This document shows, piece after piece, positions 8,302 to 56,396 of a stretch of DNA of 64,000 nucleotides. A program made the position numbers and the translations under genes. This DNA comes from an uncultured Neomegalonema sp. (GTDB lineage: Bacteria; Pseudomonadota; Alphaproteobacteria; Rhodobacterales; Rhodobacteraceae), in the NCBI GenBank assembly GCA_937911325.1, contig CALDSD010000093.1, forward strand, positions 1 through 64,000, read 5' to 3'. Within the stretch, counting starts at the first letter, position 1, and each line of letters begins with the position of its first letter. The notes below the pieces were generated by a model. The model worked only from the letters and a program-made list of their open reading frames with translations. It did not search any database and had not been told where the DNA came from.

Positions 8302-9225
8302 ATGTCCATTCTTTCAAAAGCTTACTTCCACGACGAGGCTGCGGCCTTCGAGTACCTGGAGAACATCCTATGGCCGGACGGCCCGGTTTGCCCCCATTGC
8401 GGCGGGTACGAGCGCATTTCCAAGATCAAGGCGAACCCGGAGAAGCGGGTCCGTCAGGGCCTGCACAAGTGCGGTCAGTGCAAAAAGCAGTTCACGGTGC
8501 GTGTCGGCACTGTCTTTGAGGCGTCCAAGGTCGAGCTGCACAAGTGGCTGCAGGCGGTGTACCTGATGTGCGCCAGCAAGAAGGGCATCAGCGCGCACCA
8601 GCTTCACCGCGTTCTGGAGGTCACCTACAAGACCGCATGGTTCATGGCACACCGTATCCGGGAGGCGATGCGTTCGGGAGACCTTGGCCCTTTCGGCCCG
8701 ATGGGCGGTCAGGTCGAGGTGGATGAAACGTTCATCGGCCACGACAAGACCCGCCCGGTTGAGCGCGGCTACCAGCATAAGCACAAGGTTCTAGCGCTTG
8801 TGGACCGCCGCACGGGCAAAGCGAAAACGATGGTCGTTGATCGCCTCGCTAGCCGTGAGTTACTGCCGATCTTGAAAGAGAACATCTCTGAGGAAGCACG
8901 CGTCTACACCGATGAGGCTGGCTGTTACCGCCGCTTGCGCGACCACTTCCTGCAGCTCCAGTCGGTGAAGCATAATGATGGCGAGTACGGTCGTGGCGAG
9001 GTCCACACAATCACCGTCGAGGGCTACTTCTCGATCTTCAAGCGCGGCATGAAGGGTGTCTATCAGCACTGCGCCAAGAAGCACCTGCATCGGTACGTCG
9101 CTGAGTTTGAGTTTCGCTACAATAATCGGGTGGCCAACGGTGTAGGCGACGCCACAAGAACACGAGTTGCATTGGCGGCCGCAGTTGGGAAGCGACTGAC
9201 CTATCGGCGGGCTAACGTCGAATAG
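8302..9225 (+). CDS. IS1595 family transposase (N-terminal zinc ribbon + DDE_Tnp_IS1595/ISXO2-like domain)
   Basis: CPHCG...CGQC zinc ribbon, then VYTDEAGCYRRL...KHLHRYVAEFEFRYNNR, which is typical of IS1595/ISXO2-like transposases. Confidence 0.9.
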   Translation: MSILSKAYFHDEAAAFEYLENILWPDGPVCPHCGGYERISKIKANPEKRVRQGLHKCGQCKKQFTVRVGTVFEASKVELHKWLQAVYLMCASKKGISAHQLHRVLEVTYKTAWFMAHRIREAMRSGDLGPFGPMGGQVEVDETFIGHDKTRPVERGYQHKHKVLALVDRRTGKAKTMVVDRLASRELLPILKENISEEARVYTDEAGCYRRLRDHFLQLQSVKHNDGEYGRGEVHTITVEGYFSIFKRGMKGVYQHCAKKHLHRYVAEFEFRYNNRVANGVGDATRTRVALAAAVGKRLTYRRANVE

Positions 9226-9427
9226 TTGAGTCGGATCAAAGGGATAGCAAAAATATCCACATCTTGTTGGAATCGTTGAACGATTTACCCACATGTAGTA
9301 TGTTCCAATTGGTGGGCCGCCGGGTCGCTCGGGTCGGCAGCGAAAGTGACTGAGGGCGTCCATAGGGACGGTTGGCGCTCTAGGAAGCTGGCCTAGAAGC
9401 CCTTGGATTAGACGAGTCCGGGGCCCA

Positions 9428-10282
9428 CTATTGCCTGGGGTATCCGTAGTATCGGAAGACCTCGGATTGCTCGGGCAGTAGCTTGGCCCCTTTCAGCGAG
9501 GGTAGCAGCTTCACACCGTAGCCGGCAGCGGTGTTTGCAGGGTCGTCTCGATACTTTGCCATTCGTGGGCGCAAGAGCTTCGCGAAGCGCGGATCACAAG
9601 CGCCGGTGTTGTGCACGTCGGATCCTTTAAAAAACGAACTTGCAACGACATCCGCGAGTTGCAGACCAGCGCGTTCGTAATGTGGAAAAACCTTAAGTAG
9701 ATCGTAGTCAATGACCTCCCAGTGTATTTTGCCAAACTTCAGAAAGGTATTTTCGCCCTGATAGCTGATCCAGCGATAGTATGCATTCATCTGTGGGTAA
9801 GAAAGTCCGCCGCGGTTACTGTACTCAATGCGAACCTTTTTCGGCGTTCCGAACTCTTTTTTCGAATGCCAATAGACAAAGTCCGTGACCCGTTCCAAAA
9901 GTACCCTTGTCATCCAGCAATAAAACCAATTTCGAGATGGGATATTTTCGGCGAGAGGATTTCGGTAGCCGCGCATATTCTTCTTATTCGAGCAGACTAC
10001 AAAATATCTTGCGCTAAGCTCTGCTAGGCGCTCACATACAAATACTTTCTTGTTTTCCGAGAGGTTTGAAAAATGCAGGGTGCGTGCTTGGTGTCGCCAA
10101 AGCCCGTCTTTAATGCTTTGAACCCAGTGCTTGACCTCGTCTTCGCGCGAAGCCTTCACGACTACGCCTGAGATCATGAGCCACTCGCTCGAACCATTCT
10201 CGTCGATCGGCCGAATGCGCTTAAGGCCGTCGTCGCCAGCCTCATCGATGTACGCTATATAGTGATAGGGCTTTCCATTCAT
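9428..10282 (-). CDS. DUF3800-like protein (IS passenger)
   Basis: 284 aa. The N-terminal YIAYIDEAGDDG resembles the conserved YIDESG motif of DUF3800. GC content is visibly lower than the surrounding genome. Confidence 0.55.
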   Translation of the reverse strand: MNGKPYHYIAYIDEAGDDGLKRIRPIDENGSSEWLMISGVVVKASREDEVKHWVQSIKDGLWRHQARTLHFSNLSENKKVFVCERLAELSARYFVVCSNKKNMRGYRNPLAENIPSRNWFYCWMTRVLLERVTDFVYWHSKKEFGTPKKVRIEYSNRGGLSYPQMNAYYRWISYQGENTFLKFGKIHWEVIDYDLLKVFPHYERAGLQLADVVASSFFKGSDVHNTGACDPRFAKLLRPRMAKYRDDPANTAAGYGVKLLPSLKGAKLLPEQSEVFRYYGYPRQ

Positions 10283-14428: not shown

Positions 14429-14504
14429 GCGGATATAGCTCAGAGGTTAGAGCATCAGGTTCAGGATCTGACGGACGCGGGTTCGACTCCCGTTATCTGC
14501 TCCA
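14429..14504 (+). tRNA. tRNA, short-variable-arm cloverleaf; hand-folded anticodon CAG (identity uncertain)
   Basis: GCGGATA acceptor with G3:U70, GCTC/GAGC D-stem, TCAGG/TCTGA anticodon stem with loop TTCAGGA, GGTTCGACTCC T-loop, discriminator U then CCA. Confidence 0.6.
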
Positions 14505-14579
14505 TGGATCGTAGCTCAGTGGTAGAGCAACAGATTGCTAATCTGTGAGGCGAAGGTTCGAGTCCTTCCTATCCAGCCA
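14505..14579 (+). tRNA. tRNA, short-variable-arm cloverleaf; hand-folded anticodon GCU (Asn-like body; identity uncertain)
   Basis: U1:A72 acceptor (TGGATCG / CTATCCA, one mismatch), GAGCAAC, ACAGA/TCTGT anticodon stem with loop TTGCTAA, GGTTCGAGTCC T-loop, discriminator G then CCA. It directly abuts the previous tRNA. Confidence 0.55.
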
Positions 14580-44960: not shown

Positions 44961-46121
44961 ATGAGCACGACTGAGGACGTCTTCCCACCAACGGAACTTA
45001 AGACAAGGCTCGCAGCCGTGCGCAGTCGAATGGCCGAACAGGAACTCGACGGGCTGGTGATCAGCGCGCCCGAGAACATCTACTATCTCACAGGGCTCGA
45101 TCACTGGGGGTTCTTCGCCTGCCATCTACTGATCGTTCCGCGGGATGGAGATCTGGTCCTGACCGGTCGCGCGATCGAGCGCATCACCTTTGACAATCAG
45201 GTCAGGAACGCACGGTTCGAGGGTCACGCCGACCATGAGGACGTCGTCGACTATGCGGTGCGCATTCTGGCGGAGCTTGGTTTGTCGGGTGGACGGCTCG
45301 GTATCGAAAAGCGTAGTCTGTTCCTGACCCCGCGGATCGCAGAAGGGATCCAGGCCCGGGAAAACGGGGCAGATTGGCGCGACGCCTCTGGCTTGGTCGA
45401 CGCCCTTCGACTTGTGAAGTCGCCGTTGGAGATGTCCTACACGCGCAAGGCTGCGAAAGCCGCCGACGCTGGAACCCTCGCAGCGATCGAGGCGGTCCGC
45501 GACGGTGCGAGCGACTACGAAATCGCAGCCGAATGCCATCGTGCGATGATCCTGGCCGGCAGCGAGTATCCCGGTTTTGGACCCTTCATCCGGCCGACGT
45601 CGCGTCTGGGTGAGGAGCACACGACATGGCGTGGGGACGCCTTCCATGACGGCGATGCGATGTTCCTCGAGATCGCCGCCGCCTACCGCAAGTATCAAGC
45701 TCCGATGGGACGTCTCGTTTATGTCGGCCGCGCGCCAGACGGCGCGGAGAAGTCGGCTGAGATGGCGAGGGACGGAATGAAGGCGATCTGTGGCGCGCTA
45801 CGACCAGGGGTCAAAGCCGGCGACGTCTACGCGGCTTGGCGCGAGGTCGTGCGGGCGGCGGGGCTCGCCAACTACGATCGGCACCATTGCGGATATCTGG
45901 TCAGCATTGGCTTTCCACCGAGTTGGACGGGCGGCAGCATGGTCACCGGGCTCGCGCCGGGGTCTCAGATGGCGCTCGAGACCGGCATGACGTTTCACGC
46001 GCAATCGTGGTTCACCGACACCGACTGCGTCGACTACTTCATTTCCAACACTGTTCTTCTGGGCGAAGAGGGCGCGGAGATCCTCACGCATGAAACGCCA
46101 GAGACGCTGATCGTTCGCTGA
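44961..46121 (+). CDS. M24 family metallohydrolase (creatinase/Xaa-Pro aminopeptidase/ectoine hydrolase-like)
   Basis: Creatinase-type N-domain plus a pita-bread C-domain with conserved His/Asp/Glu metal ligands. ATG at 44961. Confidence 0.8.
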   Translation: MSTTEDVFPPTELKTRLAAVRSRMAEQELDGLVISAPENIYYLTGLDHWGFFACHLLIVPRDGDLVLTGRAIERITFDNQVRNARFEGHADHEDVVDYAVRILAELGLSGGRLGIEKRSLFLTPRIAEGIQARENGADWRDASGLVDALRLVKSPLEMSYTRKAAKAADAGTLAAIEAVRDGASDYEIAAECHRAMILAGSEYPGFGPFIRPTSRLGEEHTTWRGDAFHDGDAMFLEIAAAYRKYQAPMGRLVYVGRAPDGAEKSAEMARDGMKAICGALRPGVKAGDVYAAWREVVRAAGLANYDRHHCGYLVSIGFPPSWTGGSMVTGLAPGSQMALETGMTFHAQSWFTDTDCVDYFISNTVLLGEEGAEILTHETPETLIVR

Positions 46122-46556
46122 TCGGGCGCACCAAGAAACGAGCGACCAGCGAAACGCATCAAGGCGTCTGCGAACACCGCGCCGCCGATGCCGGGCGGGA
46201 TGGAGTGTCAGAGGAGTTCGTCGCCCCTAGAACGGGTGTCGTGACGGGTTTTCGGGATCTGTTGGAGACGATTGAGACGCTGAGAAAGATCGACGGCGTA
46301 TCTCAGCCCGTGCGACGACGTGATCAGGCGGAGAGGCCGCGCGAGCAAATCGGGATGCAAACCGGAATGTCGGAAAGTTTTTGAGTTTGGTCGCTCTGGG
46401 TTTGAAAATTTCCTGAATCGCGGGTGGATCGAGGGAAACTAACGTGCTTCCATGCACTTGGTTCGCAGATGACGTTTGAGAGTTGGGACAAGAGCCAAGG
46501 GGGCGGCGCCCGCCAAACCGCTGCGGCAAAAATCAGAACGACTGGGAGACGACACG

Positions 46557-48158
46557 ATGAAGAAAGATCAAGCCCTTATTGATCGACTAGCGGAAGAGGC
46601 TCGAAAGGGCCGCATCTCTCGCCGGAATTTCATGCATTACTCGCTCGCCGCTGGCCTGACAGCCAGCTCTGCGACGGGATTGTGGACGACGACCGCGATG
46701 GCGCAACCAAAGCCTGGCGGCGTCTTCCGCCTTGGCGCGCATGACGGCAACACGTCCGACACCCATGACCCGGGCACCTATCTCAGCTTCTCGGTGATTC
46801 AGCTGGCGCACACGTATCGCGCGTATCTGACGTTGATTGAACCAGACGGAAGCAACGGTCCAGACGTGGCCACGGAATGGTCGGCGACGCCGGACGCGAA
46901 AGAGTGGACGTTTAAGCTAAACGAGCGGGCGACCTTCCATTCCGGCGGTAAAGTTACGGCCAACGACGTGATCGCGTCGATGAACCATCACCGCGGCGAA
47001 GACTCGACGTCGGCAGCCAAGGCGTTGTTGAAGGATGTCGAGGACATCGTCGACAACGGCGACAACTCGGTCACCTTCAAGCTTGGGTCGTCGAACGCTG
47101 ACCTGCCATGGCTGATGACGGATTATCACCTGCCGATCTGCCCGGCGAACGCCGACGGCTCGTTGAATTGGCAGTCGGGCGACGGTTGTGGCCCCTACAA
47201 GCTCGTCGAAGCTGAGTTCGGCGTCGGCTTCCGCCTGGTCCGTCACGAAGATTGGCACCTGGAAGGCGCCTACTTCGATGAAATCGTCATCCAGGTCCTG
47301 AACGATCCGAACGCTCGTCAGACCGCCCTGGTGACCGGAGACGTGGACGCGATCACGCAGCTCGAACTGAAGACGCTCGCGCTGCTGCAGCGCAATCCGC
47401 AGATCGCGATTGATAACGTGCCGTCCGCAGCGGCGATTACAATGCCGATGTTCTGCGACACCGCACCGTTCGACAATGTCGACGTGCGCAATGCGCTGAA
47501 ACTGTCGATCGATCGCCAGGAGATTATCGACAAAATCGCGTTTGGCACCGCCACGATGGGCAATGACTTCCATCATTCGCCAGCCATGCCTTACTGGCCG
47601 GATGATCTGGAGCAGACCCCGTACGACCCTGATCAGGCGAAAGCGCTGCTCAAGAAAGCAGGGGCTGAGGGGCTGAGCGTCGATCTCAGCGTCGCGGACT
47701 CGGTTTTCTCTGGGGCGGTCGACCTTTGCGTTCTCTACGCCGAGCACGCCAAGGCCGCGGGCATCAACATCAACGTCATCCGCGAGCCGAACGACGGCTA
47801 CTACTCGGATGTCTGGCTGAAAAAACCTTGGTGCGCGGTGCAGTGGGGCGCCCGCCCGACGCCAGACGTGATGTACTCGTTGGCCTACAAGGACGACGCC
47901 GCGTGGAACGAAAGCCGCTGGCAGAACGCTCGGTTCAACGAACTGCTTCGGACCGCCAAGGCCGAGCTCGACGATGCAAAGCGCGCCGAGATGTACCGCG
48001 AAATGGCGATCCTCGCGAAAGACGATGGCGGGACGGTCATCCCGATGTTCCCGAACTTCGTCTACGCGCGCCGCTCGAATGTCATGCACGGCGAGCAACT
48101 CGCCGCCAGCTGGCAGATGGACGGCGCACGCGCGTGCAGCCGCTGGTGGTTCGGCTAA
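46557..48158 (+). CDS. ABC transporter substrate-binding protein (family 5)
   Basis: Tat-like RRNFMH motif and an SBP_bac_5 body. ATG at 46557 with a GGGAGA RBS. Confidence 0.85.
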   Translation: MKKDQALIDRLAEEARKGRISRRNFMHYSLAAGLTASSATGLWTTTAMAQPKPGGVFRLGAHDGNTSDTHDPGTYLSFSVIQLAHTYRAYLTLIEPDGSNGPDVATEWSATPDAKEWTFKLNERATFHSGGKVTANDVIASMNHHRGEDSTSAAKALLKDVEDIVDNGDNSVTFKLGSSNADLPWLMTDYHLPICPANADGSLNWQSGDGCGPYKLVEAEFGVGFRLVRHEDWHLEGAYFDEIVIQVLNDPNARQTALVTGDVDAITQLELKTLALLQRNPQIAIDNVPSAAAITMPMFCDTAPFDNVDVRNALKLSIDRQEIIDKIAFGTATMGNDFHHSPAMPYWPDDLEQTPYDPDQAKALLKKAGAEGLSVDLSVADSVFSGAVDLCVLYAEHAKAAGININVIREPNDGYYSDVWLKKPWCAVQWGARPTPDVMYSLAYKDDAAWNESRWQNARFNELLRTAKAELDDAKRAEMYREMAILAKDDGGTVIPMFPNFVYARRSNVMHGEQLAASWQMDGARACSRWWFG

Positions 48159-48336
48159 TCGCGCAGCCGCATTGCACCCAGCCTGCGCTGGCTGGATGAA
48201 AACTCGGGGCGCCTCCGATGCGAGGCGCCCCCACATACGAACCGAAGACACACGAACACTATAAAAATCAACGTGTTGGACGGTTCAGAAAAAAAGGGTC
48301 AGGCAGGAAGCGGCCCTGAGCGGAGGAGTTCTTCAA

Positions 48337-49293
48337 ATGGGGACGCTACTGTTCCTAATCGCCAAGCGGCTATTCCTCGGATTGCTGACGCTGCTGGTGA
48401 TTTCGGTGATTATTTTCTTCATGGTCGAGCTGCTGCCGGGCGATATCGCCGAGGCCGTGCTTGGGATGGGCGCGACGGAGGAGAACCTCGCCGCTCTGCG
48501 TAAGCAGATGGGTTTGGATCAACCCGCCCCTGTAAGATACCTCAATTGGCTGTCCGGCGCCGTCGTGGGCGACTTTGGCACGTCTTTGATTTCAGGCGAG
48601 CGCGTCACGACGATCATCGGCCAGAGGTTCATGAACACGCTGTTCCTCGCGGCTTACGCGGCTGTGATCGCAGTGCCCTTCGCGATCACCCTCGGCGTGA
48701 TCGTCGCTCTGCTGCGCAACACGCTTTTCGACCGGGTGGCCAACGTCGTGACCTTGACGTCGATTTCGAGCCCAGAGTTCTTCCTCGGCTACATTCTGAT
48801 CCTCTACTTCTCCGTGCAAACGGGCATGTTCCCGGCGATCTCCAGCCTGAACGCGGATATGACGTTCCTGGAGCTGCTCCACCGGACATTCCTGCCGGCG
48901 CTGACGCTGGTGCTCGTTGTCACCGCGCATATGATGCGGATGACGCGCGCGGCGATCATCAACCTGCTGGCCTCGCCTTACATCGAGATGGCGCGGCTCA
49001 AGGGGATGCCGCCGTGGAAGGTGATTGTGAAGCACGCCCTGCCGAACGCGTGGGCTCCGATCATCAACGTGGTGGCGCTGAACCTCGCCTACCTGATCAC
49101 CGGCGTCGTGCTGGTCGAGGTGGTGTTCGTCTACCCAGGGATCGGCCAATCGCTTGTCGATGCCGTGTCAAAGCGTGACTTCCCGGTCGTTCAGGCCTGT
49201 TGTTTGATCTTCGCTGCGACGTTCATCTTGCTGAACATAGCGGCGGATGTCGGCGCAATTCTCACCAACCCGCGCTTGCGGCATCCGAAATAG
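48337..49293 (+). CDS. ABC transporter permease (DppB/OppB-like)
   Basis: 318 aa with 6 TM segments and a BPD_transp_1 EAA-like loop. Confidence 0.85.
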   Translation: MGTLLFLIAKRLFLGLLTLLVISVIIFFMVELLPGDIAEAVLGMGATEENLAALRKQMGLDQPAPVRYLNWLSGAVVGDFGTSLISGERVTTIIGQRFMNTLFLAAYAAVIAVPFAITLGVIVALLRNTLFDRVANVVTLTSISSPEFFLGYILILYFSVQTGMFPAISSLNADMTFLELLHRTFLPALTLVLVVTAHMMRMTRAAIINLLASPYIEMARLKGMPPWKVIVKHALPNAWAPIINVVALNLAYLITGVVLVEVVFVYPGIGQSLVDAVSKRDFPVVQACCLIFAATFILLNIAADVGAILTNPRLRHPK

Positions 49294-49305
49294 GGGGGCG
49301 ATAGA

Positions 49306-50367
49306 ATGAGTGAGTTCGTCATCATCTACTTCGCCCTGCTGGTCATAGCCTCGTGCGGGGCTGCGTATTATGGTCAGCGGCCGGCGTTTCTTACGCTCTT
49401 TTCTCTGACGTTGGTCTCCTTCGTGTTGGGGATCGTCGGCGGCGTGTCGGCGCTCCAGTTCGTGGCGATTGCGGCTGGCTTGTTGGCTTTCGCGGCGGGT
49501 ATCTCCTACTCGTTCCGCGAGTTCCTCGTCGCGATCACCAAGGGCAACCTGTCGAAGGAGCTAAAGACGGCGCCGTTGACGGCGGCGTTTGGCATGTTTG
49601 TCATTTTCACCTACGCGATTGCGGGCATTTTCGCGCCGTTCATCGCCCCTTATGGCGAGGCGGAGGTGATTGCGGCGGCGTTTGCACCAGCGGACGAGAA
49701 CATGCTGCTCGGCGCTGACCAGCTCGGCCGCGACATGTTTAGCCGCCTGATCTATGGCGCGCGAAACACGGTCGGCCTCGCCCTTGTCGCGACAAGCGCC
49801 GCATTCTTCATGGGGGCGACCGCGGGTCTTCTCGCAGCGACAAAAGGCGGCTGGTTCGATCAGTTCATGGGCCGTTTCGCCGATGTCGTCATGTCGATCC
49901 CGTCCCTGATTTTCGCGCTGCTGATGCTGTCGATCTTTGGTCCGGAGATCCACGTGATCATCATCGCGGTGGCGATCATCTATGCGCCAAGGGTCTTCCG
50001 TCTGACCCGCGCCGTCGCCGGCAACGTCGTCGTGATGGACTACATTGAGGCCGCCAAGCTGCGCGGAGAAGGAACCGGGTATCTCATCCGCAGGGAGATC
50101 CTGCCGAACGCGACCGCGCCTTTGGTCGCCGAGTTCGGCTTGGAGTTCTGCTTCGTGTTCCTGTTGGTCGCCGGGCTGTCGTTCCTCGGACTTGGCATCC
50201 AGCCGCCCACAGCGGACTGGGGCTCGATGGTGCGCGAGAACGCAACCCTCATTTCGTTCGGCGTCGTCACGCCGCTCATCCCAGCCGCGGCGATCGCTCT
50301 TCTGACGGTCGCCGTCAACTTCGTCGTTGACTGGATGCTGTTCCGTTCATCCGGCCTGAAGGAGTAA
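49306..50367 (+). CDS. ABC transporter permease (DppC/OppC-like)
   Basis: 353 aa with an extra N-terminal TM region and a permease core. Confidence 0.8.
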   Translation: MSEFVIIYFALLVIASCGAAYYGQRPAFLTLFSLTLVSFVLGIVGGVSALQFVAIAAGLLAFAAGISYSFREFLVAITKGNLSKELKTAPLTAAFGMFVIFTYAIAGIFAPFIAPYGEAEVIAAAFAPADENMLLGADQLGRDMFSRLIYGARNTVGLALVATSAAFFMGATAGLLAATKGGWFDQFMGRFADVVMSIPSLIFALLMLSIFGPEIHVIIIAVAIIYAPRVFRLTRAVAGNVVVMDYIEAAKLRGEGTGYLIRREILPNATAPLVAEFGLEFCFVFLLVAGLSFLGLGIQPPTADWGSMVRENATLISFGVVTPLIPAAAIALLTVAVNFVVDWMLFRSSGLKE

Positions 50368-50372
50368 TCGCC

Positions 50373-52025
50373 ATGTCAGCGAGCAACAAACAGGTTCTCC
50401 TGGAGATCAAAGACCTCAAGATCGAGGGCTTTACCGGCGAGGAGTGGATCCCGATCATCAAGGGCGTCGACCTGACGCTTCATCGCGGCGAGGTGATGGG
50501 GCTGATCGGCGAGTCCGGCGCCGGGAAGTCCACGATCGGCGCGGCGGCCATGGGGTTCGCCCGCGATGGCACGCGCATCTCGGACGGGACCATCGAGTTC
50601 GATGGAATGGAGCTGACCACCGCTACGGAAGAAGACCGCCGCGCGCTGCGGGGCGCTCGCATCGCCTATGTGGCGCAGTCCGCGGCGGCGTCCTTCAATC
50701 CAGCTCACAAGATCATCGATCAGCACACCGAAGCGCCGCTGCACTATCGCATCCAGAAGCGCCTGGAGGCGCAAGAGGATGCGATGGAGCTCTATGAAAG
50801 GCTCCGTCTGCCGAACCCGCAGGAGATCGGTTTCCGCTATCCGCATCAGGTGTCCGGTGGTCAGCTGCAGCGCGCGATGACTGCGATGGCGATGGCCTGC
50901 CGGCCTGACCTGATCATCTTCGACGAGCCGACGACCGCGCTCGACGTGACGACGCAGATCGAGGTTCTGGCCGCGATCCGCGATATCGTCGATCAGTTCG
51001 ACACCGCTGCGATCTACATCACGCATGACCTCGCTGTGGTCGCCCAGATGGCGGACACGATCAAAGTGCTGCTGAAGGGTGAAGAGGTCGAGGAAGCCCC
51101 AACCAAGGAGATGCTGGATAGTCCGAAGGAGGACTACACCAAGAGCCTCTGGGCGGTTCGCAGCTTGAGGCGAGAGCAAAAGTCGCGACCTCAGGGCGCA
51201 ACACCCGTGGTTTCGGTCCAGAATGTCGACGCGGCTTACACAGGCGGCGTGAAAGTCCTCGATGACGTCTCCTTCGACATCTACGAGGGCATGACGGTCG
51301 CCGTGGTGGGAGAATCCGGATCGGGCAAATCGACGACAGCTCGGTGCATCACCGGCCTGCTTCCACCGAAGAAGGGGCAGATCCTGTTCCGAGGCGAGCC
51401 GCTTCCGCCCAGCTATCTCAAGCGAACCAAGGATCAGCTGCGACAGGCCCAGATGATCTATCAAATGGCTGATACGGCGTTGAATCCCAAGGTTCGCATC
51501 AGCGAGATCATCGGTCGTCCGGCCCAGTTCTATTCGGGCCTTCACGGCGGCGCGCTGAAGCAGCGCGTTGACGAACTGCTGGACCTGATCGAACTGGAGC
51601 CATCCAAATTCTACGACCGCTTCCCGCCGGAACTCTCGGGCGGACAGAAGCAGCGGATCGGGATCGCGCGGGCGCTCGCGGCGGAGCCGACCTTCATCAT
51701 CTGCGACGAGGTGACTTCGGCGCTCGACCAGCTCGTCGCCGAGGGCATTCTAAAGCTGTTGAACCGGCTGCAGAGTGAGCTGAACCTCGCCTACATGTTC
51801 ATTACCCACGATCTCGCAACGGTGCGCTCGATCGCGGACGAGGTGGTGGTGATGCAGCACGGGCGGGTCGTCGAACAGGGGCCAAAAGACGAGATGTTCA
51901 CGCCCCCGCACCATCCCTACACGGATCTGCTGCTCTCGTCGGTGCCGGAAATGGATCCGGAGTGGCTGACATCGCTGCTCGAAGAACGCGGCGTCGACAA
52001 TGTCGGAGAGGCGGCGAACGTCTAG
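50373..52025 (+). CDS. ABC transporter ATP-binding protein with duplicated ATPase domains (DppD/DppF fusion)
   Basis: Two Walker A motifs (GESGAGKST, GESGSGKST) and two LSGGQ signatures. Confidence 0.9.
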   Translation: MSASNKQVLLEIKDLKIEGFTGEEWIPIIKGVDLTLHRGEVMGLIGESGAGKSTIGAAAMGFARDGTRISDGTIEFDGMELTTATEEDRRALRGARIAYVAQSAAASFNPAHKIIDQHTEAPLHYRIQKRLEAQEDAMELYERLRLPNPQEIGFRYPHQVSGGQLQRAMTAMAMACRPDLIIFDEPTTALDVTTQIEVLAAIRDIVDQFDTAAIYITHDLAVVAQMADTIKVLLKGEEVEEAPTKEMLDSPKEDYTKSLWAVRSLRREQKSRPQGATPVVSVQNVDAAYTGGVKVLDDVSFDIYEGMTVAVVGESGSGKSTTARCITGLLPPKKGQILFRGEPLPPSYLKRTKDQLRQAQMIYQMADTALNPKVRISEIIGRPAQFYSGLHGGALKQRVDELLDLIELEPSKFYDRFPPELSGGQKQRIGIARALAAEPTFIICDEVTSALDQLVAEGILKLLNRLQSELNLAYMFITHDLATVRSIADEVVVMQHGRVVEQGPKDEMFTPPHHPYTDLLLSSVPEMDPEWLTSLLEERGVDNVGEAANV

Positions 52026-52607
52026 GGCCTCGCGGCGTTGACGGCTCACGTCGAGAGGGTGGCCTGGCGATCAGCCGGCCATCTTCTCTTCACATATGGT
52101 TTTGTCGGGTAATTCGCCGGGGGTCAGACGATCGTCGACGCAGTCGCGACGAGCGTACCAACAAGAACACCATACAGGATCAAAAGCGCCGGAAGGGTGC
52201 CGGCGCGGGCGCGGTATTCGCGGATCAAAGCGTCTCGTGTCAGCATCTTACCAACCCCTAAATCGAGTTCGGCCAGCGCGAACGCGCGCTGCGAGCGGAC
52301 ACATATGGATTTCGGTGTTTCCGCGCAACCAACTGAATGACGAATTTGCATGCGCTGACAGCATGCCTCCCATGCGTTTTCCGCTTAACGTGGGGCACGG
52401 CCCCATGCACGCGCGCATGCACGGATCTAGGCGCGTGATCGCCCTAGTTGGCGCATTCATAAACAGGCGCCAAGGACAAGTCCACACCAACCAAGGCGGT
52501 TGTTTTCCATCTGCACAAAAAGATGAGTTCTGGCATTCGCGAGAACACCACGACTTTTCATGCTTTCGCGCGGCCCTAGAAACTCTAAATTATCGTTTCA
52601 TATCAAG

Positions 52608-53210
52608 TTAATCTAGCTTACTGCATTTCTCTGAAAAAGCCCTCACCACGTTCAGTATATTTCCCGCGTGTTCTGTTTTAAATTTTATAACTGCACTTGC
52701 ACCAAACTCTTGCAGGCTCGCTCTAATTCCACAATATTGAGATAGTGAGAAGCTGGCGTAGTCATCCTTAAACCTATTGGTTAAGTGTGGTATATATCTC
52801 GAGTATTTAATGTGCCCAATATCGTGCAGACGCGATGGCTGGAACCATCCAGCGTTCTTAAAAAACACAGTCAGATCGGAGTACCTTCCATAGCTCTTCA
52901 ATATTGGCAGTCTTTTTCTGAAATCTATTTTTGAAAAATCGATTGATTTTACTCTAAGTTTCGCAAAGAAACCACGCTCACATTGATGAGCGAGATTCTC
53001 AACACCCCACGATATTCTACAACCATCAATGTGTATATCTTCTCTTGACCCTCTCTCCCCTGCCTTTAATTCACTCGATAGCAGTATTTCTTTAATATCA
53101 TTTTTTATTTTATATTCATTGAAATTATGCGATCTATCAAAATAATCCGAGCATGATGCAGTTAAAGCAAGAAGAGCAAGTACTGATATACCTGTCATAC
53201 AGTATTTCAT
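52608..53210 (-). CDS. AT-rich orphan lipoprotein (hypothetical)
   Basis: 200 aa with a lipobox (LALLALTASC). GC content is far below the window average. It is adjacent to the tRNA-Ala 3' flank. Confidence 0.55.
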   Translation of the reverse strand: MKYCMTGISVLALLALTASCSDYFDRSHNFNEYKIKNDIKEILLSSELKAGERGSREDIHIDGCRISWGVENLAHQCERGFFAKLRVKSIDFSKIDFRKRLPILKSYGRYSDLTVFFKNAGWFQPSRLHDIGHIKYSRYIPHLTNRFKDDYASFSLSQYCGIRASLQEFGASAVIKFKTEHAGNILNVVRAFSEKCSKLD

Positions 53211-53430
53211 TGCCGACTTCGACCCTTAATGAATGCTCAAATTTCTCTCCGCGATACGCATCTTTTGACAACGATCTCGCAGGTTGAGCGAACCATTGGC
53301 GCCTGTTCTTCCATCCCCGGAATCGGGATGAGTCACATTTAGGTGTTCTTGTGTCGGATAACAGGGCTTCCAAAACCGAACCAGAGTTCGCTTTTAGACC
53401 GCTGACGCCCTGAACTGTCAGATGAGCTTC

Positions 53431-53450
53431 GCGCAACCACACGGTTGCGC
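53431..53450. other. 8-bp-stem hairpin immediately 3' of tRNA-Ala
   Basis: GCGCAACC-acac-GGTTGCGC. Confidence 0.4.
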
Positions 53451-53452
53451 TG

Positions 53453-53528
53453 TGGTGGAGCCGAGGGGAATCGAACCCCTGACCTCTACGATGCGAACGT
53501 AGCGCTCTCCCAGCTGAGCTACGGCCCC
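53453..53528 (-). tRNA. tRNA-Ala (anticodon CGC)
   Basis: Reverse complement reads GGGGCCGTAGCTCAGCTGGGAGAGCGCTACGTTCGCATCGTAGAGGTCAGGGGTTCGATTCCCCTCGGCTCCACCA. It has G3:U70, a TTCGCAT anticodon loop and discriminator A. Confidence 0.85.
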
Positions 53529-53653
53529 ACAATCCTACGCGCTTGCTCCTCGCGCAGATCCGGCAGGTACGCATGGCTCTGGGCGTTGTCAAGCGGCGCC
53601 CTTCGACGTATCTCATGCGTCGAAAGCATCGAATAGGCAGAGCGGTCCAAGGC

Positions 53654-53944
53654 ATGAACACGTTGATTTGGCTGGTCGGCGCAGTCGCGCAGATCATCTT
53701 TTATCTGGTGCTGATCCAACTCGTGATCGGGCTTCTTATACAGTTTGACGTGCTCAACCGCCGTCAGCAGTTCGTTTGGCAGATCTACAACGGCATCAAT
53801 CAGCTGCTCGACCCGCTGTTGGCGCCGATCCGCAGGATCTTGCCGCCGGCCGGCGGGATGGACTTCTCGCCGCTTGTCCTGTTGCTCGGGCTCTGGGCGC
53901 TCCAAACACTGCTTGTGAACTGCTTCATCCGAGGCGCTTGCTAA
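53654..53944 (+). CDS. YggT family membrane protein
   Basis: 96 aa from the ATG at 53654; PIRRILPPAGGMDFSPL motif. Confidence 0.7.
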   Translation: MNTLIWLVGAVAQIIFYLVLIQLVIGLLIQFDVLNRRQQFVWQIYNGINQLLDPLLAPIRRILPPAGGMDFSPLVLLLGLWALQTLLVNCFIRGAC

Positions 53945-54088
53945 AGCCCGGTCGTTGCAACCAATCGGCTAAACTGGCAAACAGCCTTTGGGGACGACGG
54001 CGGGCTCCCCTCCAGACCAATGCCTAAGCTTGGTCCAAGCATCGCCAGACGCCGACGGCGCGAGCCGCGGCTCTGAAGGAGTGCTTGG

Positions 54089-54475
54089 ATGTCTGATCGC
54101 ATCGAAACAACTGACGATGAAGTCCTGATAGACGGCGCCGTGGGCGTCCTCGCCCGCGTGGCGGTCGCTGCAACCGACGCGCTGATCGTCGATGTCCGCA
54201 AACGCGCCGCCCGGCGCGAGAGCGGTCGAGTTGTCGCCGGCGCCCCCTATCGCGACCCCGAAGAATTTCAGGTTTATGACGAGATTTGGCGTCGCTCGGG
54301 GTCCGTCCTCGTCTACTGCGTGCACGGGCACGAAGTCAGTCAAGAGATCTGCGCCCAGCTGCGCGCCGCCGGCGTTGATGCAAAGTTCATCGTCGGAGGT
54401 TTTGAGGCCCTGACGCATGCCGGCGCAGCGCTAAGTGACCTTGGAGTTGACCGCGATTTGGGGGAGAACGCGTGA
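54089..54475 (+). CDS. rhodanese-like domain protein (chromate-cluster associated)
   Basis: 128 aa; CVHGHEVS active-site-like loop. It overlaps the chrA start. Confidence 0.6.
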   Translation: MSDRIETTDDEVLIDGAVGVLARVAVAATDALIVDVRKRAARRESGRVVAGAPYRDPEEFQVYDEIWRRSGSVLVYCVHGHEVSQEICAQLRAAGVDAKFIVGGFEALTHAGAALSDLGVDRDLGENA

Positions 54476-55758
54476 TGACCGAGGGGCAAGCTTCGGAGGC
54501 GGAGACCAGTCCGGGGCCAAAGGGCGCAACATCCGATACGTCGTCGATGTGGATCAAGATCGGCCTGCTGTCTTTCGGCGGGCCGGCAGGTCAGATCGCG
54601 CTGATGCAAAACGAGCTCGTCGACCGACGCAAGCTCGTTGACGAGCAGACGTTCCTGAGGGGTTTGAACTTCTCGATGCTGCTGCCCGGACCCGAGGCCC
54701 AGCAACTCGCGACCTGGCTTGGATGGCGGATCGGGGGGCTTTGGGGCGGCCTGTTCGCGGGCCTCGCCTTCGTGCTGCCTGGGGCTGTGCTGATGATCGG
54801 GCTCGCATGGCTCGCCGCCAGCGCCGGCGACACGCAATGGGCGCGCTGGATCTTTGCGGGCGTGCAGCCTGTCGTCGTGGCTATTGTCGCCCAAGCGCTC
54901 TATCGGATCGGAAGAAAGGCGCTGAACGGGCCCGCGGCGATGGCCTTGGCCCTGTCCGCTTTCGTCGCGATCTATTTCCTGAGCGCGCCATTCCCCTTGA
55001 TTGTCGCGCTGGCGGGCGTCATCGGATTGCTCCTGCCGCATGGCCCGGAGCAGACCAAGGTCGATCCGGCGCCGCCGGGGTCGCGCGGCTTTGCGCTGCG
55101 TGTGGTGCTCGCCTTCGCCGTCGTGGTGGCCGCCGTCTACGTCGCCGTCCGAGCGGTTTTTGGCGCCGACCCGTTCGACGGGGTCGCGGAACTGTTCCTG
55201 TCGGCCGCCTTCGTCACTTTCGGCGGCGCGTACGCCGTCCTGCCCTATGTCGCTGATCTCGCCGTCGAGAGTTACGCATGGCTGACAAAGGCGGAGATGA
55301 TCAACGGGTTGGCGCTGGCCGAGTCGACGCCTGGACCGTTGATCCTCGTGAACGTCTACGCCGGGTTCTTCGCCGGATGGGACGGGCCTGGGAGCGACCC
55401 AACGATCGCGATCCTGACAGCGGCGCTGGCGTGCTTTTACACGTTTGCGCCAAGTTTCATGCTGATCCTGGCCGCCGCGCCTTATGTCGAACGCCTGCAG
55501 AATGCGCCAGTGGCTAGACGCGCGCTCGCCGGGGTCTCGGCTGCGGTCGTCGGGGTGATTGCGAACCTGGCCGTCTATTTCGGCGTGGAGGCCTTGGCGC
55601 CCGCCGGAGCCGCCGGACCGCTGGGTCTCGATCTTGTTCGAACGGCCATCGCACTCCTCGCCGCCGGACTAGCTTTTGGCCTGAACGTCTCGATGCAGTA
55701 CCTTGTCGCTCTTGGCGCCGTCACAGGTCTGGCGCTGGGTTACGGAGGCTTGTTGTGA
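54472..55758 (+). CDS. chrA: chromate efflux transporter (CHR family)
   Basis: Duplicated CHR domains (GLLSFGGPAGQIALMQ... and FVTFGGAYAVLPYV...). Confidence 0.9.
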   Translation: MMTEGQASEAETSPGPKGATSDTSSMWIKIGLLSFGGPAGQIALMQNELVDRRKLVDEQTFLRGLNFSMLLPGPEAQQLATWLGWRIGGLWGGLFAGLAFVLPGAVLMIGLAWLAASAGDTQWARWIFAGVQPVVVAIVAQALYRIGRKALNGPAAMALALSAFVAIYFLSAPFPLIVALAGVIGLLLPHGPEQTKVDPAPPGSRGFALRVVLAFAVVVAAVYVAVRAVFGADPFDGVAELFLSAAFVTFGGAYAVLPYVADLAVESYAWLTKAEMINGLALAESTPGPLILVNVYAGFFAGWDGPGSDPTIAILTAALACFYTFAPSFMLILAAAPYVERLQNAPVARRALAGVSAAVVGVIANLAVYFGVEALAPAGAAGPLGLDLVRTAIALLAAGLAFGLNVSMQYLVALGAVTGLALGYGGLL

Positions 55759-56396
55759 GCAATGAAACGGTGCCGAAACTAACGTTCTGGTTCGAGTTCG
55801 CGAGCACCTATACCTACCTGACCCTGCAGCGGATCGAAGACGCGGCGAAGTCGGCGGGTGTCGAGCTTGAATGGCGCCCGATCCTTCTAGGGCCGATTTT
55901 CGGCGCGCAGGGTTGGGACACCTCGCCCTTCAAAATCTACCCCGCGAAAGGCGCGTTCATGTTTCGCGACCTTGAGCGTCGCGCCGCCGCATACGGATTG
56001 CCGTTCAAACGCGAGGGCATTCTTCCAGTAAACTCGGTCATGGCCGCGCGCCTGGCCGTCGCCGCATTGGAGCAGTCGCAAGGCCCGGCCTTCTGCCGGC
56101 GTGTTTCTTTCGCCCATTGGGGCGAGGGACGCGACATCAGCAACGCCGACGTCCTTGAAGACTGCGCCAGAGCCGCAGGCTTCGATCCGCAGGCGCTGAG
56201 CGCGCGCGCGTCGGACCCTGCGGTGAAGCCGCGCTTGCGTCAGAATACGGAAGACGCCCAGTCGCTCGGCGTCTTCGGCGCGCCGAGCTTCACGGCCCGG
56301 GGTGAGCTCTTTTGGGGCGACGATCAGCTTGAGGATGCGCTGGCATGGGCCAGGACCGGCGCAATGTCGCCTCGAAACCGTTCGCAGCCGCGCTGA
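55755..56396 (+). CDS. 2-hydroxychromene-2-carboxylate isomerase family (DsbA-like thioredoxin fold)
   Basis: 213 aa with FWFEFASTYTYL and FGAPSF motifs. It overlaps the chrA stop. Confidence 0.8.
   Translation: MSNETVPKLTFWFEFASTYTYLTLQRIEDAAKSAGVELEWRPILLGPIFGAQGWDTSPFKIYPAKGAFMFRDLERRAAAYGLPFKREGILPVNSVMAARLAVAALEQSQGPAFCRRVSFAHWGEGRDISNADVLEDCARAAGFDPQALSARASDPAVKPRLRQNTEDAQSLGVFGAPSFTARGELFWGDDQLEDALAWARTGAMSPRNRSQPR

What the first reader, a model, noticed from the sequence alone, without database searches (positions are those of the whole stretch)
52100..53452. AT-rich islet with an orphan lipoprotein at the 3' flank of tRNA-Ala(CGC)
Directly downstream of the tRNA-Ala 3' end (53453, minus strand), about 1.3 kb of markedly AT-rich DNA interrupts the high-GC chromosome. 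It encodes one 200-aa lipoprotein with no recognisable domain, flanked by about 240 bp and about 480 bp of non-coding sequence. tRNA 3' ends are classic integration sites. No integrase or attachment-site repeat is left, so this looks like the remnant of an integrated element whose only retained gene is a surface or periplasmic lipoprotein.
Basis: seen in the sequence. Interest (0 to 1): 0.55.

Follow-up and report, generated by a model that had tools for sequence, protein, structure and literature searches.

The report
Orphan AT-rich lipoprotein gene beside tRNA-Ala
A roughly 1-kb AT-rich patch next to a tRNA-Ala gene carries one real, exported lipoprotein-type gene with no detectable relative outside one narrow group of uncultured marine alphaproteobacteria; this is an ordinary orphan gene of probably foreign origin, and nothing shows how it got there.

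Summary
The AT-rich core is 52500-53260 (GC 0.36-0.42, against 0.63 for the window). A fast-diverging segment spans about 52380-53395.

The 200-aa ORF (52608-53210, minus strand) is a genuine gene. Its dN/dS is 0.28-0.45. Eight of nine further full-length copies from independent assemblies are intact. It has a signal peptide and an invariant Cys20 in a relaxed lipobox.

It is a strict orphan. Searches of 5.8 billion proteins and 1.84 billion cluster representatives found only its own cluster. Pfam, NCBIfam, PHROGs, PADLOC, PDB, phage, plasmid and viral collections gave nothing. GC3 is 0.33, against 0.66-0.82 in neighbouring genes.

Every sampled genome of this clade (92.6-99.9% nucleotide identity) carries it at this site. 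The nearest other genera keep tRNA-Ala(CGC)-yggT but have unrelated GC-rich genes there.

No integrase remnant, attachment repeat or empty site was found. Foreign origin is likely, but tRNA-targeted integration is unproven. AlphaFold2 models failed, so function is unknown. Interest is low: a new member of a known kind.

The parts
53453..53528 (-). tRNA-Ala, anticodon CGC, with encoded CCA. Native gene that forms the right anchor of the islet.
   Evidence: ARAGORN and Rfam RF00005 at 66.8 bits. It is paired with yggT in five other genera. The alignment shows ordinary compensatory stem changes and no 3'-half replacement.
53431..53450 (-). 8-bp GC-rich hairpin (GCGCAACC/GGUUGCGC) that starts 3 nt after the tRNA 3' end. 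It is probably the tRNA trailer or processing/terminator stem and lies outside the fast-diverging segment.
   Evidence: Sequence and fold; the fold energy is not significant against shuffles. The hairpin is kept in the 95%-identity lineage L003. Four linked SNPs disrupt it in L031 and L034.
52380..53395 (.). Fast-diverging segment, the best estimate of the islet's extent at about 1.0 kb.
   Evidence: A maximum-likelihood two-breakpoint fit of mismatches against L003 gives 9.3% inside and 2.2% outside (lnL -380.7 against -399.6). The left breakpoint against L002 is 52360.
52500..53260 (.). AT-rich core, GC about 0.39, with 50-bp bins from 0.20 to 0.50.
52608..53210 (-). Orphan gene for a 200-aa pre-protein. 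The mature part is 180 aa, pI 9.3, hydrophilic. The core at codons 89-136 is nearly invariant.
   Evidence: ORF. dN/dS is 0.28-0.45. The core has omega 0-0.13. GC1/2/3 are 0.42/0.38/0.33. Eight of nine other full-length copies are intact. No homologue exists outside its own cluster.
53151..53210 (-). Signal peptide (codons 1-19: K2, then hydrophobic GISVLALLAL) plus Cys20 in the motif L-T-A-S-C.
   Evidence: Translation. It is the only hydrophobic segment (KD15 maximum 2.07 at residue 11). It matches relaxed lipoprotein patterns, which I recalled from memory. Cys20 is invariant. Position -3 is T, I or P among alleles.
53211..53430 (-). 5' intergenic region of the orphan gene. GC is intermediate. 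No consensus sigma-70 promoter was detected on the minus strand. Read-through from the tRNA promoter is possible but is inference only.
52513..52571 (-). Long imperfect hairpin with a U-run in its 3' arm, 37 nt after the stop codon. Possible terminator of the orphan gene; weak evidence.
   Evidence: Fold (z = -1.1, not significant). Substitutions in relatives are not compensatory.
52124..52246 (-). Native 40-aa membrane microprotein gene, not part of the islet. It sets the islet's outermost possible left limit.
   Evidence: Only synonymous changes are seen among lineages. A 42-aa homologue follows the orthologous ABC ATPase in L041. An unannotated homologue is present in Ponticoccus L040 (tblastn E = 2.6e-12). 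GC3 is 0.66.
50373..52025 (+). Native left flank: the fused double ATPase of a peptide/nickel-type ABC transporter operon.
   Evidence: Pfam domains are listed on homologues. It is 85-90% identical to listed homologues in many Rhodobacteraceae. Omega is 0.04.
53654..53944 (+). Native right flank: yggT, followed by a 128-aa gene, chrA and dsbA.
   Evidence: Synteny of tRNA-Ala with yggT, chrA and dsbA holds in L005 and L007.

Best explanation
A roughly 1-kb single-gene islet (about 52380-53395) lies between a native microprotein gene and the trailer of tRNA-Ala(CGC). It carries a functional, lineage-restricted orphan gene of probably foreign (horizontally acquired) origin.

The DNA entered before this species-level clade diversified. 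The clade now shows up to about 8% nucleotide divergence in the islet. The islet became fixed and is kept under relaxed purifying selection.

The product is made as a 200-aa precursor. It is inferred to be exported by Sec, then lipid-modified and cleaved at Cys20 by the Lgt/LspA pathway. That would leave a basic, hydrophilic protein of about 21 kDa tethered to a membrane facing the periplasm or the cell surface.

Its role is unknown. My best guess, which is inference only, is an accessory envelope function of the kind singleton foreign lipoproteins often have: protection or immunity against an envelope-acting toxin or phage, or a niche-specific surface interaction.

Shown: composition, coding status, selection, distribution, and the absence of homologues. 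Inferred: horizontal origin, lipidation, localisation and function. The route of entry (a tRNA-targeting integrase or illegitimate recombination at a synteny breakpoint) is undetermined.
For: Composition:
- The minimum GC is 0.36 against 0.628 +/- 0.044 for the window.
- GC3 is 0.33, against 0.66-0.82 in neighbouring genes.

Real gene:
- The stop-free stretch exceeds all 2000 shuffles.
- dN/dS is 0.28-0.45 overall and 0-0.13 in the core at codons 89-136.
- Eight of nine other full-length copies are intact.

Orphan status:
- Only 3 hits among 5.8e9 proteins, all from the same locus in close relatives.
- Only its own cluster among 1.84e9 representatives searched with a profile.
- No hit in Pfam, NCBIfam, PHROGs, PADLOC or PDB.

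Distribution:
- Present wherever contigs reach the site in more than 10 assemblies at 92.6-99.9% identity.
- Absent next to tRNA-Ala(CGC)-yggT in L005, L007 and L009. Those loci have pqqBCDE, an FMN-dependent dehydrogenase and an unrelated secreted protein at GC 0.64-0.75.

Other points:
- The left flank is native.
- Unconstrained sites show a mild AT-to-GC excess. Equilibrium GC is 0.46 at third positions and 0.63 in the non-coding parts, against 0.33 and 0.49 now. This fits slow amelioration.
- The profile matches what is described for bacterial orphans: short, AT-rich, atypical composition (PMC12315717, PMC2718499, PMC3514957).
- Export signal: K2, an 11-residue hydrophobic stretch and an invariant Cys20 matching relaxed lipobox patterns.
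Against: - No donor, no homologue in any mobile-element collection, and no integrase or attachment remnants.
- No empty site, so the insertion is inferred and not observed.
- The outgroups are distant (YggT 78% identical) and differ in the whole left flank.
- The amelioration signal is not significant (23 against 14 substitutions). Total AT-to-GC and GC-to-AT counts in the core are balanced (36 against 34).
- The lipobox is non-canonical in the window: Thr at -3, so the strict [LVI][ASTVI][GAS]C pattern is not met. One allele has Pro at -3 and fails even the relaxed patterns.
- Within the 99.9%-identical population, changes are 7 non-synonymous (including one nonsense) to 2 synonymous. Present-day constraint is therefore weak.
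- No structural or functional evidence: AlphaFold2 pLDDT was 40 and 31.5.
Confidence: 0.6

Rival explanations
1. Specific version of the first reader's idea. The islet is the decayed remnant of an integrative element (prophage, ICE or island) that used tRNA-Ala(CGC) as its attachment site. Everything except one cargo gene was later deleted.
For: - The atypical segment starts about 58 bp from the tRNA 3' end.
- The tRNA 3' flank is a synteny breakpoint; four lineages have four different neighbours there.
- Integrative elements are reported as a major source of orphan genes (PMC2718499).
Against: - No integrase fragment in a six-frame Pfam scan of both non-coding flanks.
- No direct repeat of the tRNA 3' end within 8 kb; the best match is 10 nt at E about 1.
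- The tRNA and its trailer are 98-100% conserved, with no chimeric 3' half.
- No relative of the gene in phage, plasmid or viral collections.
- No presence/absence polymorphism within the clade.
Confidence: 0.25
2. The gene is native. Either it arose de novo, or it is an old gene diverged beyond recognition. Its AT-richness would reflect local mutational equilibrium under weak selection, not foreign ancestry.
For: - No homologue anywhere.
- No mobility signatures.
- Total AT-to-GC and GC-to-AT substitutions in the core are balanced, giving an equilibrium GC of 0.40 against 0.39 now.
- Evolution is relaxed, with a nonsense allele.
- The origin of bacterial orphans is acknowledged as unresolved (PMC12315717).
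Against: - Adjacent non-coding DNA and the neighbouring microprotein gene keep GC near 0.6. A local AT-ward equilibrium confined to this gene would therefore be odd.
- A 200-codon open frame in 38% GC DNA is very unlikely without selection.
- Unconstrained sites lean towards GC gain.
- The gene is absent from related genera at the same tRNA flank.
Confidence: 0.12
3. The ORF is a decaying or non-functional relic, or an annotation artefact. The apparent lipoprotein signal is fortuitous.
For: - A nonsense allele, R100*, in GCA_039200805.1.
- A T17P change in the lipobox in GCA_050043125.1.
- A 7:2 non-synonymous to synonymous ratio among near-identical genomes.
- A weak ribosome-binding site and no consensus promoter.
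Against: - dN/dS is 0.28-0.45 across about 8% divergence, and the 48-codon core is almost invariant.
- No indels or frame disruptions in three diverged lineages.
- The frame is intact in 8 of 9 other copies.
- The open frame exceeds all shuffles.
Confidence: 0.05

Closest known systems
Lineage-restricted orphan (ORFan) genes in bacterial genomes (Daubin & Ochman 2004 and Cortez et al. 2009, as summarised in PMC12315717; PMC2718499; PMC3514957)
   Same: It is short, AT-richer than the host genome, atypical in codon composition, faster-evolving than its neighbours, and restricted to one narrow clade. It has no detectable homologue.
   Different: It stands alone as a single gene and is not inside a cluster of atypical genes. 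It is fixed in every sampled member of the clade, not patchy.
tRNA-associated genomic islands or islets inserted by tyrosine integrases (classical attB in the tRNA 3' end; from general knowledge)
   Same: Atypical-composition DNA lies directly on the 3' side of a tRNA gene, and this flank is a synteny breakpoint between genera.
   Different: There is no integrase, no integrase pseudogene, no direct repeat of the tRNA 3' end and no presence/absence polymorphism. The segment is only about 1 kb.
Small accessory envelope lipoproteins carried by mobile DNA, such as phage exclusion lipoproteins (T5 Llp, phi80/N15 Cor), plasmid TraT, and periplasmic immunity lipoproteins of T6SS effectors (recalled from memory; a functional analogy only)
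   Same: It is a singleton foreign-looking gene whose product has a signal peptide and a lipobox-type Cys. The mature protein is small and hydrophilic.
   Different: There is no sequence similarity to any of them: PHROGs and PADLOC gave nothing. No cognate effector or phage context exists, and no structural model is available to compare.

Membership tests
Bacterial lipoprotein (Lgt/LspA substrate) | N-terminal positively charged n-region followed by a hydrophobic h-region of about 7-20 residues | tested here: met
   K2, then GISVLALLALTA. It is the only hydrophobic segment of the protein.
Bacterial lipoprotein (Lgt/LspA substrate) | Lipobox ending in an invariant Cys; the strict form is [LVI][ASTVI][GAS]C | tested here: inconclusive
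   The window has T-A-S-C, so the strict form fails. Relaxed PROSITE-like and G+LPP-like patterns, which I recalled from memory, match. Allele L003 has I-A-S-C, which meets the strict form. Allele L034 has P-A-S-C, which fails all patterns. Cys20 is invariant.
Bacterial lipoprotein (Lgt/LspA substrate) | Actual diacylglyceryl modification and signal peptidase II cleavage | not testable with these tools
   This needs globomycin sensitivity tests, lipid labelling or mass spectrometry.
tRNA-targeted integrative element or genomic island | Integrase gene, or its remnant, adjacent to the tRNA | tested here: not met
   No ORF with integrase similarity was found. A six-frame Pfam scan of 52247-52620 and 53200-53455 gave only noise, with E at least 0.15.
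tRNA-targeted integrative element or genomic island | Direct repeat of the tRNA 3' end (attL/attR) bounding the element | tested here: not met
   The best direct match is a 10-mer in the trailer at E about 1. No match of 9 nt or more to the tRNA 3' half stands out within 45000-53400.
tRNA-targeted integrative element or genomic island | Atypical base composition relative to the host chromosome | tested here: met
   GC is 0.36-0.42 against 0.63, and GC3 is 0.33 against 0.66-0.82 in neighbouring genes.
tRNA-targeted integrative element or genomic island | Presence/absence polymorphism (an empty site) among related genomes | tested here: inconclusive
   All assemblies of the clade carry the islet. 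Other genera lack it but also differ in the whole left flank. Public data hold no intermediate relatives.
Orphan (ORFan, lineage-restricted) gene | No detectable homologue outside a narrow clade | tested here: met
   Only its own cluster was found in 5.8e9 proteins and in 1.84e9 representatives. Family, PDB, phage, plasmid and viral searches were all negative.
Orphan (ORFan, lineage-restricted) gene | Evidence that it is a real gene and not a spurious ORF | tested here: met
   dN/dS is 0.28-0.45, the core is conserved, the open frame exceeds all 2000 shuffles, and the frame is intact in 8 of 9 other copies.
Xenogeneically silenced locus (MucR/Ros-type silencing of AT-rich DNA in Alphaproteobacteria, PMC7710501) | Silencer occupancy and repression of the AT-rich gene | not testable with these tools
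   Only the AT-richness, which is the prerequisite, is shown. Occupancy needs ChIP-seq or a mucR mutant.

The most novel reading that the evidence does not exclude
The orphan encodes a new-fold envelope lipoprotein with a specific protective or host-interaction role, such as phage exclusion, toxin immunity or symbiosis, in this uncultured lineage related to Neomegalonema. Its mosaic divergence would then reflect exchange of old alleles at an exposed surface protein. Synonymous divergence is 0.24-0.44 in codons 21-88 against 0.07 in the invariant core.
Probability: 0.15. Interest if true: 0.45.

Novelty: new member of a known kind. Interest (0 to 1): 0.2.

Why it matters
On its own it matters little. 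It is a clean, well-bounded example of a fixed single-gene orphan islet in a high-GC alphaproteobacterium. The case is useful for studies of orphan origin and amelioration because the clade offers three diverged alleles plus population variants. If the protein turned out to have a defined envelope-protective function or a new fold, it would add one family to the many uncharacterised lipoproteins. Nothing here opens a long-standing question.

Tried and rejected
- Remote homology: a word-indexed search, an exhaustive profile search of 1.84e9 representatives, Pfam, NCBIfam, PHROGs, PADLOC and PDB, and tblastn against phages, plasmids and viral contigs. All were empty.
- Structure: AlphaFold2 on the 3-sequence alignment gave pLDDT 40, and on the mature protein alone 31.5. 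Both are too poor for a fold search, so none was run.
- Attachment repeats: the repeat finder and blastn-short with the tRNA plus its flanks gave only chance-level 8-11-mers.
- The 12-nt perfect inverted repeat AACAGGCGCCAA / TTGGCGCCTGTT flanking the AT-rich core was rejected as terminal repeats. It is centred on the self-complementary GGCGCC, does not extend, and its left arm carries CC-to-AA in L003 and L002.
- The 14-nt inverted repeat at 52021 / 52567 was rejected for the same reasons: chance level and not conserved.
- RNA elements: Rfam at E up to 1 over 51900-53800 found only the tRNA. Folds of the 3' and 5' non-coding parts did not differ from shuffles.
- Empty site: genome and metagenome scans with YggT, exact-protein look-ups and a YggT homologue search found no relative between 99% and 78% identity. 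The test could not be done.
- Assembly chimera: rejected, because the arrangement recurs in more than 10 independent assemblies.
- The 171-aa plus-strand ORF at 52096-52611, called in some metagenome annotations, was rejected as spurious. It overlaps the conserved 40-aa gene on the other strand and has no family hit.

Full report
**1. What is in the sequence**

ARAGORN places tRNA-Ala(CGC) at 53453-53528 on the minus strand, and Rfam agrees.

GC drops from about 0.62 to 0.37-0.42 between roughly 52500 and 53260. It is intermediate (0.48-0.52) up to about 53400. The lowest 400-bp window has GC 0.36, against a window-wide mean of 0.628 with sd 0.044. That is the most extreme value in the 64 kb.

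The only sizeable ORF in the trough is 52608-53210 on the minus strand, 200 aa. Its start lies 242 bp from the tRNA 3' end.

It contains a 40-aa ORF at 52124-52246 on the minus strand. The AT-rich DNA is therefore about 0.75 kb, not 1.3 kb.

**2. Is the ORF a gene?**

- Its stop-free stretch of 205 codons exceeds all 2000 shuffles of the same DNA (mean 75, maximum 201).
- Three diverged alleles exist: the window, L003/L004 and L002. They are 86-88% identical in protein and have no indels.
- Pairwise dN/dS is 0.28-0.45.
- Codons 89-136 are almost invariant, with omega 0-0.13.
- By comparison, the flanking ABC ATPase has omega 0.04, and yggT shows only synonymous changes.

The gene is therefore real but evolves fast.

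Constraint looks weak on short timescales. Among genomes about 99.9% identical to the window, changes in the gene are 7 non-synonymous against 2 synonymous. The non-synonymous set includes R100* in GCA_039200805.1 and T17P in the lipobox of GCA_050043125.1.

**3. Product**

The N-terminus is MKYCMTGISVLALLALTAS-C20. It has one basic residue, an 11-residue hydrophobic stretch and an invariant Cys.

- The strict lipobox [LVI][ASTVI][GAS]C is not met in the window, which has Thr at -3.
- It is met in the L003 allele (IASC).
- Relaxed PROSITE-like and G+LPP-like patterns, written from memory, match all alleles except the T17P variant.

The mature protein is 180 aa, with pI 9.3 and GRAVY -0.51. It has no further hydrophobic segment. 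Export is likely and lipidation is plausible, but neither is shown.

**4. Homology**

- Pfam, NCBIfam, PHROGs, PADLOC and PDB gave no hits.
- A search of 5.8e9 proteins found three hits, all from the same locus in close relatives.
- A full HMMER profile search of 1.84e9 cluster representatives found only its own cluster.
- Phage, plasmid and viral-contig collections gave nothing.
- AlphaFold2 gave pLDDT 40 and 31.5, so no fold comparison is meaningful.

This is a strict orphan.

**5. Distribution**

Exact-sequence look-ups of YggT and of the 40-aa protein returned more than 10 independent assemblies. They comprise NCBI MAGs labelled 'Pseudomonadota bacterium' or 'Neomegalonema sp.', plus ENA, Logan and JGI contigs. 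They are 92.6-99.9% identical to the window.

Wherever a contig reaches the site, the islet is there. No empty site was seen. This also excludes an assembly chimera.

Many contigs end inside the islet or at the tRNA (L035, L037-L039, L046, L047, L049, L050). That fits the islet's higher microdiversity or its deviant GC.

Public data hold no relative between 99% and 78% YggT identity.

The nearest other genera are L005, L006, L007, L009 and L010. They keep tRNA-Ala(CGC) next to yggT, and L005 and L007 also keep chrA and dsbA. On the tRNA 3' side they have unrelated GC-rich genes:

- L005: pqqBCDE, ending 50 bp from the tRNA.
- L007: an FMN-dependent dehydrogenase.
- L009: an unrelated 248-aa secreted protein.

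The flank is a synteny breakpoint, but these outgroups are too distant to define an insertion junction.

**6. Boundaries**

The 40-aa gene is native.

- All its substitutions among lineages are synonymous.
- Its GC3 is 0.66.
- A 42-aa homologue sits convergently after the orthologous ABC ATPase (90% aa identity) in L041.
- An unannotated copy is present in Ponticoccus L040.

A two-breakpoint likelihood fit of mismatches against L003 places the fast-diverging segment at 52380-53395. Divergence is 9.3% inside and 2.2% outside. The right edge falls just beyond the 8-bp hairpin that follows the tRNA (53431-50).

**7. Origin**

GC3 is 0.33, against 0.66-0.82 in neighbouring genes. The adjacent native non-coding DNA has normal GC. 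Together these argue for foreign ancestry and against a local mutational quirk.

Substitutions were polarised on the three-allele star tree.

- In the whole core, AT-to-GC and GC-to-AT counts are balanced (36 against 34).
- At unconstrained sites there is a mild AT-to-GC excess. Equilibrium GC is 0.46 at third positions and 0.63 in the non-coding parts, against 0.33 and 0.49 now.
- This is compatible with slow amelioration but is not significant.

Nothing indicates the route of entry.

- There is no integrase remnant.
- There is no repeat of the tRNA 3' end within 8 kb.
- The tRNA 3' half is not chimeric.
- The short inverted repeats around the gene are at chance level and are not conserved.

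I give it about 0.25.

The literature describes exactly this class: short, AT-rich, compositionally atypical orphans. They are often attributed to integrative elements or phages, and their origin is still debated (PMC12315717, PMC2718499, PMC3514957). In Alphaproteobacteria such AT-rich DNA is the proposed target of MucR-type silencing (PMC7710501). That was not testable here.

**8. Verdict**

The feature is a new member of a well-known kind and its function is unknown. Interest is low (0.2). The most novel reading still open is a new-fold protective or surface-interaction lipoprotein with allele exchange in its N-terminal half. I put its probability at about 0.15.

Noticed in passing
window 14429-14504 (+) and 14505-14579 (+): Two directly abutting tRNAs of 76 and 75 nt are called Leu(CAG) and Ser(GCU), and both are strong Rfam tRNA hits. 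Both have a short 5-nt variable loop and lack the long variable arm that bacterial tRNA-Leu and tRNA-Ser normally carry (sequence). By my reading, the CAG tRNA has a G3:U70 pair in its acceptor stem, which is the alanine identity element (from general knowledge). The GCU tRNA has U1:A72, G73 and a C6-U67 mismatch. They sit among core genes (cobB, rpmB, meaB). Exact-match scans found them in no viral contig. These could be anticodon-switched or mistranslating tRNAs and deserve their own analysis.
   Followed up: partly
window 52124-52246 (-); L041 5720-5848 (-); L040 5723-5848 (-): A conserved 40-42-aa membrane microprotein (MLTRDALIREY...LVGT...) is encoded convergently just after the fused ATPase gene of a peptide/nickel-type ABC transporter operon. 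It is conserved from this lineage to Ponticoccus, where it is unannotated. Only synonymous changes are seen within the clade. It matches no family.
   Followed up: partly
window 8302-10282: This is the second-lowest GC patch of the window (0.45-0.49). It holds a 307-aa ORF that looks like an IS1595/ISXO2-type transposase and a 284-aa ORF on the opposite strand that looks DUF3800-like. Both assignments are judged by eye from the translations and were not searched.
   Followed up: no
window 53439-53451 (trailer of tRNA-Ala); L031, L034: Four linked substitutions within 12 nt (53440, 53445, 53448, 53451) abolish the 8-bp hairpin right after the tRNA in two assemblies. Those assemblies are otherwise about 99.7-99.9% identical to the window. 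Other assemblies differ only in the loop, at 53439. This could be a short recombination tract, a template-switch event or a consensus error.
   Followed up: no
L033 (GCA_039200805.1), equivalent to window 52913: A T-to-A change converts codon R100 of the orphan gene to a stop in one MAG. This is either real pseudogenisation in part of the population or a MAG consensus error.
   Followed up: partly
window 50373-52025 (+) compared with 53654-56396 (+): The ABC ATPase is 85-90% identical to listed homologues in many Rhodobacteraceae genera, and also to a Hoeflea and a Geminicoccaceae entry. The best non-clade relatives of YggT, ChrA and DsbA on the other side of the tRNA are only 64-78% identical. 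This may be only different conservation levels. It could also mean that the whole left flank has a different history from the right flank.
   Followed up: no
L009 651-1397 (-): In a related genus, the position directly downstream of tRNA-Ala(CGC), on the same strand, holds a different GC-rich 248-aa ORF. It has an N-terminal hydrophobic segment and shows no similarity to the window's orphan.
   Followed up: no
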